Positions 4,762 to 6,720 are shown, counted from the stretch's first letter. The stretch: DNA of 13,406 bases from a virus (IMGVR_UViG_2778261447_000002); one strand, 5' to 3'. Notes: generated by a model not told the origin, from the sequence alone. Numbers and translations are program-made.

Positions 4762-6720
4762 ATGCAGGCTGGTCACCAGAGTGACGCGGATATTTATATT
4801 TATGACGAGATTGGTTTCTGGGGTGTTACAGCGAAGCAGTTTATCAGTGATCTGAATGCACTGGGCGATATCACCCACATTAATCTCCATATTAATTCAC
4901 CGGGTGGCGATGTCTTTGAAGGCATCGCCATTTTTAATGCGCTGAAAACACATGGTGCGTCCATTACCGTTTATGTCGACGGTGTGGCGGCGTCAATGGC
5001 GTCGGTCATTGCGATGGTAGGAAACCCGGTCATTATGCCGGAAAACACCTTCATGATGATTCATAAACCATTTGGCTTTACGGGCGGTGATGCGGAGGAC
5101 ATGCGCACCTATGCCGACCTGCTCGATAAAGTTGAGGCGGTTCTGTTACCCGCTTATGCACAGAAAACCGGGAAAACCACCGATGAAATTGCTGCCATGC
5201 TGGCGGATGAGACCTGGATGTCCGGTGCCGAATGTCTGGCACATGGATTTGCTGATCAGGTAACGCCAGCCGTTAAGGCAATGGCATGTATTCAGTCAAA
5301 ACGTACAGAGGAATTTAAAAAGATGCCGGAATCCATTCGAAACATGATTACTCCGCCACGCAACAGTGCTCCACGCGTACAGGATAATGAATCTGAAGCC
5401 TCCTGGACGCCAGTGCAGGCAGCAGCACCCGTGGTGGATGAAAACAGCATCCGTGCGCAGGTACTGGCAGAGCAAAAAGCGCGTGTAAACGGTATTAATG
5501 ATCTGTTTGCCATGTTTGGCGGGCGTTATCAGACGCTGCAGGCTCAGTGTCTTGCCGATCCTGAATGTTCGCTGGAGCAGGCCCGTGAAAAGCTGTTGAA
5601 CGAGATGGGGCGCGAGTCCACGCCATCCAATAAAAATACCCCGGCTCATATTTATGCCGGTAACGGTAATTTTGTGGGGGACGGGATTCGCCAGGCGCTG
5701 ATGGCGCGTGCCGGATTTGAAAAAACCGAACGTGATAATGTCTACAACGGGATGACCCTGCGTGAATATGCCCGTATGTCACTAACTGAACGGGGTATTG
5801 GGGTTTCCGGTTATAACCCGATGCAGATGGTCGGTGCGGCGTTCACACACAGTACGTCTGACTTCGGTAATATTCTGCTGGATGTTGCGAACAAAGCCAT
5901 TCTGCAGGGCTGGGAAGATGCCCCTGAAACCTATGAACAGTGGACGCGGAAAGGTCAGTTGTCTGATTTTAAAATTGCCCATCGTGTGGGTATGGGGGGC
6001 TTCAGTGCTCTGCGTCAGGTGCGTGAAGGGGCGGAATATAAATACGTCACCACCGGAGATAAACAGGCCACTATTGCACTGGCGACCTATGGCGAGCTGT
6101 TCAGTATCACCCGTCAGGCCATTATCAATGATGATCTGAATATGCTGACCGATGTCCCGATGAAACTGGGCCGTGCGGCGAAATCCACTATTGCCGATCT
6201 GGTTTATGCCATTCTGACGTCTAACCCGAAAATCTCCACAGATAATGTAAGTCTGTTCGATAAAGCGAAACATGCAAACGTACTGGAGAGCGCTGCAATG
6301 GACGTGGCATCGCTGGATAAAGCCCGCCAGTTGATGCGCGTTCAGAAAGAGGGGGAGCGTCATCTGAATATTCGTCCTGCGTTCGTACTGGTACCGACGG
6401 CGATGGAGTCTGTTGCTAACCAGGTCATTCGCTCCTCAAGTGTCAAGGGGGCTGACATTAACGCCGGTATTATTAACCCGGTGAAAGATTTTGCGACCGT
6501 TATTGCAGAGCCTCGTCTTGATGATAACAGCCAGACCACCTTCTACCTGGCTGCGTCAAAAGGCTCCGATACGATTGAAGTGGCTTATCTCAACGGTGTG
6601 GATACGCCATATATTGATCAGATGGAGGGCTTCAGTGTGGATGGCGTGACAACGAAAGTGCGTATTGACGCCGGTGTCGCGCCAGTTGATCACCGCGGTC
6701 TGGTGAAATGTACGGCGTAA
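4762..6720 (+). CDS. Prohead protease (ClpP/S14-like) fused to scaffold-like linker and major capsid protein
   Basis: One uninterrupted ORF of about 652 aa. The N-terminal ~170 aa has a ClpP-like serine protease core (INSPGGDVFEGIAIFNALK...VYVDGVAASMASVIAM...MMIHKP). The central ~170 aa is charged, Gln/Ala-rich and helical. The C-terminal ~300 aa looks like a phage major capsid domain. First ATG after the portal stop is 4762; the ORF track start at 4501 lies inside the portal gene. Confidence 0.85.
   Translation: MQAGHQSDADIYIYDEIGFWGVTAKQFISDLNALGDITHINLHINSPGGDVFEGIAIFNALKTHGASITVYVDGVAASMASVIAMVGNPVIMPENTFMMIHKPFGFTGGDAEDMRTYADLLDKVEAVLLPAYAQKTGKTTDEIAAMLADETWMSGAECLAHGFADQVTPAVKAMACIQSKRTEEFKKMPESIRNMITPPRNSAPRVQDNESEASWTPVQAAAPVVDENSIRAQVLAEQKARVNGINDLFAMFGGRYQTLQAQCLADPECSLEQAREKLLNEMGRESTPSNKNTPAHIYAGNGNFVGDGIRQALMARAGFEKTERDNVYNGMTLREYARMSLTERGIGVSGYNPMQMVGAAFTHSTSDFGNILLDVANKAILQGWEDAPETYEQWTRKGQLSDFKIAHRVGMGGFSALRQVREGAEYKYVTTGDKQATIALATYGELFSITRQAIINDDLNMLTDVPMKLGRAAKSTIADLVYAILTSNPKISTDNVSLFDKAKHANVLESAAMDVASLDKARQLMRVQKEGERHLNIRPAFVLVPTAMESVANQVIRSSSVKGADINAGIINPVKDFATVIAEPRLDDNSQTTFYLAASKGSDTIEVAYLNGVDTPYIDQMEGFSVDGVTTKVRIDAGVAPVDHRGLVKCTA

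What the first reader, a model, noticed from the sequence alone, without database searches (positions are those of the whole stretch)
4762..6720. Prohead protease, scaffold-like linker and major capsid protein in one ORF, with a possible nested internal start
In lambda these functions are separate genes (C, Nu3, E) and C-E fusions arise only by crosslinking. Here a ClpP-like protease domain, a helical linker and a capsid domain share one ~652-aa reading frame, implying a self-processing polyprotein. An in-frame ATG at 5323 is preceded by AGAGGA (5307-5312) and could give a protease-less scaffold-capsid product, analogous to Nu3 nested in C. That would set the protease to capsid ratio by translation rather than gene dosage.
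Basis: partly seen in the sequence, partly recalled or inferred. Interest (0 to 1): 0.5.

Follow-up and report, generated by a model that had tools for sequence, protein, structure and literature searches.

The report
Gifsy-2-type protease–scaffold–capsid fusion gene

Summary
The ORF, its three parts, the in-frame ATG at 5323 and the AGAGGA at 5307-5312 are all real. The gene belongs to the curated family NF045540, [quoted passage not shown] (984 bits, cut-off 475). It is about 99% identical in DNA to phages mEp460, cdtI and Ayreon. Its protein is 69% identical, over nearly its full length, to the Gifsy-2 "tripartite capsid gene" product described in 2010. The fusion is therefore already known.

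One correction: the full-length start is most likely GTG 4693, with AAGGAGG 5 nt upstream, not ATG 4762. That gives 675 aa.

The nested start is unremarkable in this window alone. Comparison with relatives supports it:
- 50 of 52 non-redundant relatives have a linker ATG with a Shine-Dalgarno-like site, against 11.5 expected.
- The lowest synonymous variation in the ORF lies over codons 180-188.
- The codon at -5 always ends in G, whichever amino acid it encodes.
- The surrounding mRNA is the least structured part of the ORF.
- A second family, fused to a different protease, has the same signal.

No experiment was available, and I found no description of a nested start in the papers I could read. 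The primary Gifsy-2 paper was not held.

The parts
4681..4687 (+). Shine-Dalgarno site AAGGAGG of the full-length gene, inside the 3' end of the portal gene
   Evidence: Duplex energy with the anti-SD is -11.6 kcal/mol, the second strongest in the window. It is conserved in relatives.
4693..6720 (+).
   Evidence: NF045540 984.5 bits, cut-off 475. PHROG 133. Protein 69% identical to the Gifsy-2 gene product. About 99% DNA identity to mEp460, cdtI and Ayreon. Start assignment.
4750..5265 (+). ClpP-like (S14) serine protease domain. Ser101 is at 4993-4995 and His124 at 5062-5064 (675-aa numbering).
   Evidence: Pfam CLP_protease and NF045542. ClpP fold, TM about 0.8. Ser101 and His124 are invariant in 60 diverse homologues.
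5302..5328 (+). Junction motif R-T-E-E-F-K-K-M-P at the end of the protease part. The Pro is nearly invariant family-wide. The motif also holds the internal ribosome-binding site.
   Evidence: Pro is present in 129 of 133 representatives. Met is present only in the gamma-proteobacterial clade.
5307..5312 (+). Internal Shine-Dalgarno-like AGAGGA (core GAGGA at 5308-5312), 10 nt before ATG 5323
   Evidence: Energy -6.0 kcal/mol. nAGGAn or GGAGA sits at this place in all 36 clade members although the encoded residue varies E/Q/K/G. This is the minimum of synonymous variation in the ORF.
5323..6720 (+). Predicted nested in-frame gene: a 465-aa scaffold–capsid protein without the protease
   Evidence: The ATG is invariant in 14 genome loci at 36-99% identity. 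50 of 52 non-redundant relatives have a linker ATG with an SD, against 11.5 expected. The 60 nt around it are the least structured window of the ORF (dG -1.6, z +2.98). Stand-alone homologue in phage FP_Epona.
5350..5433 (+). Disordered Pro/Ala/Gln-rich linker
   Evidence: pLDDT below 50 at residues 220-247 of the 675-aa model. Length and sequence vary among homologues.
5440..5610 (+). Three-helix scaffold (HK97 delta-domain-like) module
   Evidence: Helices 250-273, 280-288 and 294-306 at pLDDT 81-91 (the same helices). It travels with the capsid domain in families NF045540 and NF045541 and in stand-alone genes.
5629..5661 (+). Disordered hinge, the candidate zone for the maturation cleavage (inferred)
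   Evidence: pLDDT below 50 at residues 313-323. The site is an indel hotspot in the alignment. The cleavage site was not determined.
5671..6717 (+). HK97-fold major capsid protein domain
   Evidence: Pfam Phage_capsid_4 and Mu-like_gpT. Foldseek probability 1.00 to phage capsid proteins (FCWL1, Adjutor, D3, HK97, T5) and encapsulins.
6744..6764 (+). Terminator-like hairpin plus T-run just after the capsid gene
   Evidence: Consensus scan. Function not tested.
6807..7277 (+). Head decoration (cement) protein gene with a collagen-like tail. It is the partner of the capsid protein in the Gifsy-2/lambda-type pathway.
   Evidence: Pfam Phage_cement_2 and Collagen. Translation.
3168..4748 (+). Lambda-family portal gene (its start is probably ATG 3240). 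Its last 56 nt overlap the fusion gene.
   Evidence: Pfam Phage_portal_2.

Best explanation
The gene at 4693-6720 is the head-assembly gene of a Gifsy-2-type lambdoid phage. One reading frame encodes a ClpP-like serine protease, a flexible linker, a three-helix scaffold (delta-like) module and an HK97-fold major capsid protein.

I propose that the late mRNA is translated from two starts. GTG 4693, with a strong Shine-Dalgarno site, gives the 675-aa protease–scaffold–capsid chain. ATG 5323, with a moderate Shine-Dalgarno site in a very open, A/U-rich stretch, gives a 465-aa scaffold–capsid chain equivalent to HK97 gp5.

Both chains would co-assemble on the portal, with the scaffold and protease parts facing inwards. 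In this way the protease enters the prohead as an N-terminal extension of a subset of the shell subunits. The protease then removes itself and the scaffold parts. The shell expands and is cemented by the trimeric decoration protein encoded next door.

Shown here: the architecture, family membership, homology to Gifsy-2, conserved catalytic Ser and His, and conservation of the internal start signals.

Inferred: use of the internal start, the ratio of the two products, and the cleavage positions.
For: Identity:
- NF045540 984 bits, Pfam domains, PHROG 133.
- 69% protein identity over nearly the full length with the Gifsy-2 gene product.
- Same gene order as Gifsy-2 and cdtI.
- ClpP and HK97 folds.
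- Ser101 and His124 invariant.

Nested start:
1. The ATG and an nAGGAn element 10-15 nt upstream are present in all 14 genome loci at 36-99% identity.
2. Of 52 genes below 90% mutual identity, 50 have a linker ATG with SD energy at or below -5.4 kcal/mol. The expectation from 1084 other internal ATGs is 11.5. In 14 of the 16 genes outside the 'MP' clade the ATG lies 12-51 codons further on, with its own canonical SD at 5-9 nt.
3. In 36 clade members, the codon at -5 is GAG 27/27, AAG 3/3 and CAG 4/4, plus GGA-GAT twice. Overall codon use in these ORFs is GAG 0.41 and AAG 0.35.
4. The lowest synonymous variation of the whole ORF is centred on codon 184 (observed/expected 0.59). The next lowest is at the true start.
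5. The 60 nt around the internal ATG are less structured than the rest of the ORF (mean z +1.94 over 50 genes; +2.98 in the window, the least structured window of the ORF).
6. Two members of a different fusion family (NF045541, HK97-type protease) have a single linker ATG with SD energies of -8.0 and -10.0.
7. The scaffold–capsid unit exists as a stand-alone gene in phage FP_Epona.
8. Lambda C/Nu3 has the same layout: GTG with a -12.0 SD for C, and ATG with a -6.9 SD for Nu3.
9. There is no sigma-70-like promoter inside the gene, so a second product would arise by translation, not transcription.
Against: - No protein, N-terminal or ribosome-profiling data were available.
- The sequences are phylogenetically related, so the counts overstate independence; 36 of the 52 belong to one clade.
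- The region upstream of the ATG also encodes a conserved peptide motif with a nearly invariant Pro. Part of the nucleotide conservation could therefore be protein-level.
- The internal SD is moderate (-6.0), with a rather long 10-nt spacing, and is unexceptional within the window.
- The full-length start has one of the strongest SDs in the window. The full-length chain may therefore be abundant enough on its own.
- My rough estimate is that 415 protease–scaffold extensions (about 15 MDa) could still fit inside a T=7 prohead. Stoichiometry alone does not force a second product.
Confidence: 0.62

Rival explanations
1. There is a single polyprotein only. Every capsid subunit is made as the full-length protease–scaffold–capsid chain from the upstream start. 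The conserved Met and the purine-rich codons before it reflect a peptide-level function of the junction motif, such as folding of the protease C-terminus, docking or a cleavage site. The internal ATG is not used.
For: - The strong SD at GTG 4693 (-11.6) fits a highly expressed full-length product.
- The Pro after the Met is nearly invariant, and the motif [DR]-x-x-x-[FY]-x-x-P is conserved in 133 representatives even where the Met is absent.
- Neither the citing paper I read nor the MD8 paper mentions a second product.
Against: - It does not explain why the third base of codon -5 is always G while the residue varies E/Q/K/G.
- It does not explain why clades lacking Met at this place have an SD plus ATG further along the linker.
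- It does not explain why an unrelated protease fusion shows the same signal.
- It does not explain why the mRNA there is the least structured part of the ORF.
Confidence: 0.25
2. The site is a relic of gene fusion. The SD and ATG are the leftover start of a once separate scaffold–capsid gene that lost the stop codon of the upstream protease gene. The site may still initiate weakly, but this has no role in assembly.
For: - A stand-alone scaffold–capsid gene follows a separate protease gene in FP_Epona.
- The same module is fused to two different protease families, which suggests repeated fusions.
Against: A neutral relic should decay. Instead the signal persists in genes down to about 35-40% identity, shows reduced synonymous variation and keeps an open mRNA structure.
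Confidence: 0.1
3. The single frame is a sequencing or assembly artefact, and the protease and capsid protein are really two genes.
For: None was found.
Against: The same uninterrupted frame is present in dozens of independent phage and prophage records at 99% identity, and in hundreds of diverged relatives.
Confidence: 0.01

Closest known systems
Gifsy-2 'tripartite capsid gene' (Effantin et al. 2010, Virology 402:355, PMID 20427067; locus STM1034.3n in NC_010393)
   Same: The order is the same: ClpP-like protease, central scaffold-like region, HK97-fold capsid protein, all in one ORF. The proteins are 69% identical over nearly the full length, including the ...EEFxxMP... junction. The neighbours are the same: lambda-family portal upstream and decoration protein downstream. 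Gifsy-2 also has the internal ATG, with GAGGAG upstream (-8.8).
   Different: The host and sequence differ. The window's decoration protein has a collagen-like tail. I could not read the paper, so I do not know whether it discusses an internal start. The citing papers I read do not mention one.
Pseudomonas phage MD8/F10 gp5 (PMC8508860)
   Same: It is described as protease, scaffold and capsid protein in a single gene. It is about 55-60% identical to the window protein.
   Different: The passages I read do not mention a nested start.
Lambda C / Nu3 (Shaw and Murialdo 1980), and from my own knowledge Mu I/Z and herpesvirus UL26/UL26.5
   Same: An in-frame internal start downstream of the protease domain yields a protease-free scaffold. 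The full-length gene starts at GTG with a strong SD, and the nested gene at ATG with a moderate SD.
   Different: Lambda's protease is S49, not ClpP-like S14, and its capsid protein E is a separate gene. Here the nested product would carry the capsid protein itself. Herpesviruses use a separate promoter; none is seen here.
HK97 gp5 (delta domain fused to the capsid protein), with a separate protease gp4
   Same: The predicted 465-aa nested product has the same plan: an N-terminal helical scaffold module, a hinge, then an HK97 fold.
   Different: The HK97 protease is a separate gene of another family. HK97 has no decoration protein and uses covalent chainmail, which was not examined here.
NF045541 'prohead protease/major capsid protein fusion protein' (for example Ralstonia phage YO023_3 and Synechococcus phage MinM1)
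   Same: It has a homologous scaffold–capsid module, also fused to a protease, with a single SD-preceded ATG in the linker.
   Different: Its protease part is HK97-type, not ClpP-like. The window scores 400.6 bits against a 525-bit cut-off, so it is not a member.

Membership tests
NF045540 / Gifsy-2-type ClpP-like protease–capsid fusion | Whole-protein score above the curated cut-off | tested here: met
   984.5 bits against a cut-off of 475, covering model positions 2-651 of 652.
NF045540 / Gifsy-2-type ClpP-like protease–capsid fusion | N-terminal ClpP-like protease domain with catalytic Ser and His | tested here: met
   Pfam CLP_protease E 4.5e-36. ClpP fold, TM about 0.8. Ser101 and His124 are invariant in 60 homologues. 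Activity was not tested.
NF045540 / Gifsy-2-type ClpP-like protease–capsid fusion | Central scaffold-like region between the protease and the capsid domain | tested here: met
   Disordered linker plus a three-helix module at residues 250-306. Scaffold function is inferred, not tested.
NF045540 / Gifsy-2-type ClpP-like protease–capsid fusion | C-terminal HK97-fold major capsid protein in the same frame, without a stop | tested here: met
   Pfam Phage_capsid_4 E 2.1e-54. Foldseek probability 1.00 to solved capsid proteins. The frame is uninterrupted.
NF045540 / Gifsy-2-type ClpP-like protease–capsid fusion | Head-module context: lambda-family portal upstream, decoration protein downstream | tested here: met
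NF045540 / Gifsy-2-type ClpP-like protease–capsid fusion | Proteolytic maturation to a mature capsid protein in a T=7 decorated shell | not testable with these tools
   This needs virion protein analysis. It is reported for Gifsy-2 according to my recollection of the 2010 abstract, which I did not read here.
Nested in-frame scaffold genes (lambda C/Nu3 type) | In-frame start codon downstream of the protease domain, preceded by a ribosome-binding site | tested here: met
   ATG 5323 with GAGGA 10 nt upstream, -6.0 kcal/mol. Lambda Nu3 scores -6.9.
Nested in-frame scaffold genes (lambda C/Nu3 type) | Conservation of the start signals beyond what the protein sequence requires | tested here: met
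   50 of 52 relatives against 11.5 expected. Minimum of synonymous variation at codon 184. Codon -5 always ends in G. Open mRNA structure. The caveat is that the sequences are related.
Nested in-frame scaffold genes (lambda C/Nu3 type) | The shorter protein is actually made | not testable with these tools
   No proteomic or ribosome-profiling data were available.
NF045541 (HK97-type protease–capsid fusion) | Whole-protein score above the cut-off, and an HK97-type protease domain | tested here: not met
   400.6 bits against a cut-off of 525. Only residues 200-649 match, which is the scaffold plus capsid part.
Lambda gpC (S49 peptidase) family | S49/SppA-type protease domain | tested here: not met
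   The only hit is a weak sub-threshold SppA_dom match (22.4 bits, cut-off 155). The domain is ClpP-like S14. Some phage records nevertheless label the gene 'protease C' or 'Nu3'.

The most novel reading that the evidence does not exclude
Protease–capsid fusion genes of tailed phages, in both the ClpP-type and the HK97-protease-type families, are in fact two nested genes. A conserved internal ribosome-binding site makes a protease-free scaffold–capsid chain as the bulk building block. The full-length chain is a minority subunit that carries the protease into the prohead. Translation initiation would then set the protease-to-capsid ratio. This rule would be family-wide and, as far as I could find, is undescribed.
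Probability: 0.45. Interest if true: 0.55.

Novelty: already known. Interest (0 to 1): 0.35.

Why it matters
The fusion itself is routine annotation. The useful result is a concrete, testable claim about how these very common prophage head genes deliver a limited amount of protease into the shell. The claim is a nested start conserved across two fusion families, parallel to lambda C/Nu3 and herpesvirus UL26/UL26.5.

If it is true, three things follow:
- Gene callers miss a major virion precursor in thousands of Escherichia, Salmonella and Pseudomonas prophages.
- The start coordinate of the full-length gene needs correcting in several phage records, which use ATG 4762 rather than GTG 4693.
- Engineering of these capsids would have to keep the internal site.

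Tried and rejected
- The primary Gifsy-2 paper (PMID 20427067), the Casjens and Hendrix lambda review and the Duda and Teschke review could not be read. Full-text searches for STM1033, internal starts and protease–capsid fusions found no discussion of a nested start.
- The first viral-contig scan returned only 99-100% identical copies, useless for conservation tests. I replaced it with an alignment-based scan.
- Met188 as a family-wide invariant is rejected. It is Met in only about 10 of 133 representatives at 35-60% identity. The signal is positional drift of an SD plus ATG within the linker, not one fixed codon.
- The mere presence of a Met in the linker is not informative. It occurs in 116 of 119 representatives, but I estimate about 83% would have one by composition alone.
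- An internal promoter, as in herpesviruses, was not found: 0 sigma-70-like sites against 2.4 expected.
- Antisense ORFs inside the gene (5785-6363, 5299-5649, 4343-4726) have no family matches.
- A sequence search of solved structures found only ClpP, and no capsid relative. The fold search was needed for the capsid part.
- The FP_Epona upstream protease is not ClpP-like. That phage shows only that the scaffold–capsid unit can stand alone.

Full report
**Observation**

The window holds a lambdoid late-gene block. In order it encodes a DUF1441 protein, the gpA-type large terminase, a lambda-family portal, the ORF in question, a cement/decoration protein, a Gifsy-2-family head-tail protein, and homologues of Z, U, V and G. 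The longer ORFs that follow (9759-10088 and 10030-13125) align by position with the T and H genes of cdtI.

The + strand frame is open from 4501 to the stop at 6718-6720. Read from ATG 4762 it gives 652 aa.

**What the gene is**

- Pfam finds CLP_protease at aa 23-168 and Phage_capsid_4 at aa 354-649.
- NCBIfam places the whole protein in NF045540, [quoted passage not shown], with 984.5 bits against a cut-off of 475.
- PHROG 133 matches end to end.
- The DNA is about 99% identical to phages mEp460, cdtI, Ayreon, Tritos and others, and about 77% identical to several Stx-converting phages.
- The protein database holds thousands of members, many already carrying the NCBI fusion name.
- A search of 50%-identity cluster representatives lists well over a hundred distinct full-length fusions down to about 35% identity.
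- The protein is 69% identical over nearly its full length to the capsid gene product of Gifsy-2, which has the same gene order.
- That gene is the "tripartite capsid gene" of Effantin et al. 2010. PMC12315714 cites it as a fused prohead protease and coat protein gene.
- The same single-gene protease–scaffold–capsid arrangement is described for Pseudomonas phage MD8 (PMC8508860).

The headline observation is therefore correct but already known.

**Structure**

An AlphaFold model of the 675-aa protein has a mean pLDDT of 82.7. In 675-aa numbering it shows:
- a ClpP fold at about residues 20-191;
- two short helices around the junction;
- a disordered stretch at 220-247;
- three helices at 250-306;
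- a disordered hinge at 313-323;
- a well-predicted C-terminal domain.

Foldseek matches the N-terminal domain to solved ClpP structures with a target TM of about 0.8. A separate model of residues 211-675 (pLDDT 84.9) matches HK97-fold capsid proteins and encapsulins with probability 1.00. Ser101 and His124 are invariant in 60 diverse homologues.

**Start of the full-length gene**

ATG 4762 has no Shine-Dalgarno site (-2.2 kcal/mol) and lies after a conserved W[FY] motif. GTG 4693 lies 5 nt after AAAGGAGG (-11.6). It is kept as GTG or ATG in relatives and gives the 675-aa length that most gene calls use. The gene overlaps the last 56 nt of the portal gene.

**The nested start**

In this window alone the site is ordinary. 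Its energy is -6.0, and other in-frame ATGs score as well or better. The comparative picture is different.

1. In 14 genome loci at 36-99% identity the Met is invariant. An nAGGAn element lies 10-15 nt upstream (7-12 nt in the most distant locus, L014).

2. Across 133 cluster representatives the Met is not conserved at this column, although the following Pro is (129 of 133). Most of these have a Met 10-50 residues further along the linker. Glu and Gly are enriched at positions -3 and -4 relative to that Met.

3. I collected DNA for 52 genes below 90% mutual identity. Of these, 50 have a linker ATG with an anti-SD duplex energy at or below -5.4. The expectation is 11.5, based on the 9.8% rate among 1084 other internal ATGs. 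The 14 genes with the ATG further along the linker have canonical spacings of 5-9 nt, with sequences such as AAGGAG, CAGGAGG and UGGAGG.

4. In the 36-member clade that shares the window's position, the codon at -5 is GAG 27/27, AAG 3/3 and CAG 4/4, or GGA-GAT twice. The residue changes, but AGGA or GGAG is kept. Overall codon use in these ORFs is GAG 0.41 and AAG 0.35.

5. A scan of synonymous differences puts the minimum of the whole ORF at codon 184 (observed/expected 0.59). The next minimum is at the true start.

6. The 60 nt around the candidate ATG are much less structured than the rest of the ORF. The mean z is +1.94 over 50 genes, +2.46 in the window's clade and +0.73 in the others. 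In the window the fold energy is -1.6 kcal/mol, z +2.98, the least structured window of the ORF. This is comparable to the starts of lambda D and E.

7. Two members of the other fusion family, NF045541, which carries an HK97-type protease, each have a single linker ATG with SD energies of -8.0 and -10.0.

8. In Faecalibacterium phage FP_Epona the scaffold–capsid unit is a stand-alone 530-aa gene. It aligns with window residues 198-649 and follows a separate, unrelated protease gene.

9. Lambda, the positive control, has the same layout: C starts at GTG with a -12.0 SD, and Nu3 at ATG with a -6.9 SD.

10. No sigma-70-like promoter lies inside the gene.

**Mechanism proposed**

Two products come from one late mRNA. 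The 675-aa chain carries the protease. The 465-aa chain is an HK97-gp5-like scaffold–capsid protein. They co-assemble, and the protease enters the prohead as an N-terminal extension of some subunits. It then removes itself and the scaffold modules, probably cutting in the hinge encoded at 5629-5661. The shell expands and is cemented by the decoration protein encoded at 6807-7277.

The architecture and the conserved signals are shown here. Use of the internal start, the ratio of the two products and the cleavage sites are inferred.

**Limits**

- The sequences are related, so the counts are not independent events.
- The SD overlaps a conserved peptide motif.
- The internal SD is moderate and its spacing is long.
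- The upstream start is strong. My rough estimate is that 415 full-length extensions could still fit inside a T=7 prohead.
- I could not read the primary Gifsy-2 paper, so I cannot say whether a nested start was already considered there. None of the papers I could read mentions one.

**Verdict**

The fusion is already known and common. I give 0.62 to the combined model, 0.25 to a single polyprotein with peptide-level conservation, and 0.10 to a neutral relic of gene fusion.

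Noticed in passing
window 6807-7277 (+): The head decoration/cement protein (Pfam Phage_cement_2) ends in about 15 collagen-like G-X-Y triplets ([48 protein letters not shown]). Phage cdtI, whose capsid gene is about 99% identical, has a 107-aa decoration protein, about 50 aa shorter. A trimeric decoration protein with a collagen triple helix would put a fibre on each 3-fold axis.
   Followed up: partly
window 6744-6764 and 6775-6793 (+): A terminator-like hairpin with a T-run lies 24 nt after the capsid gene stop. 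A second G+C-rich hairpin (CAGCCCC-TGAA-CGGGGCTG) follows, before the decoration gene. These may act as a 3' stabiliser or attenuator that sets capsid expression against downstream genes.
   Followed up: no
window 4693-4748 (+): The probable true start of the fusion gene (GTG 4693) and its SD (4681-4687) lie inside the end of the portal gene, which stops at 4748. Several phage records (for example cdtI and mEp460) annotate the later ATG instead.
   Followed up: yes
window 5302-5328; alignment of 133 representatives: A motif [DR]-[LFYT]-x-x-[FY]-x-x-P with a nearly invariant Pro (129 of 133) closes the ClpP-like domain across the whole family. Stand-alone ClpP-like prohead proteases align with the query only up to about residue 165-215, that is around or shortly after this motif. 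Its role (docking, folding or cleavage) is unknown.
   Followed up: partly
L178 (Synechococcus phage MinM1) 1799-3865; L179 (Ralstonia phage YO023_3) 1772-3865; L177 (FP_Epona) 2309-3901: The same scaffold–capsid module is fused to an HK97-type protease in L178 and L179 (family NF045541), and stands alone after a separate protease gene in L177. This suggests repeated fusion of adjacent head genes.
   Followed up: partly
L001 (MAG 'Bacillota bacterium' JAEWTL010000010.1) and L003 (soil MAG 'Proteobacteria bacterium' JAGTSE010000010.1): These two metagenome-assembled genomes carry a copy of this E. coli-type prophage gene whose protein is 98-99% identical. That looks like mis-binning or contamination of the MAGs.
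   Followed up: no
one search hit table (phage records ON470598, PV340560 and others): The same gene is variously labelled 'head-tail preconnector protease C', 'Nu3', 'terminase protein', 'major head protein' and 'putative protease' in public phage records. The lambda C and Nu3 labels are wrong at the family level, because the protease is S14 ClpP-like, not S49.
   Followed up: partly
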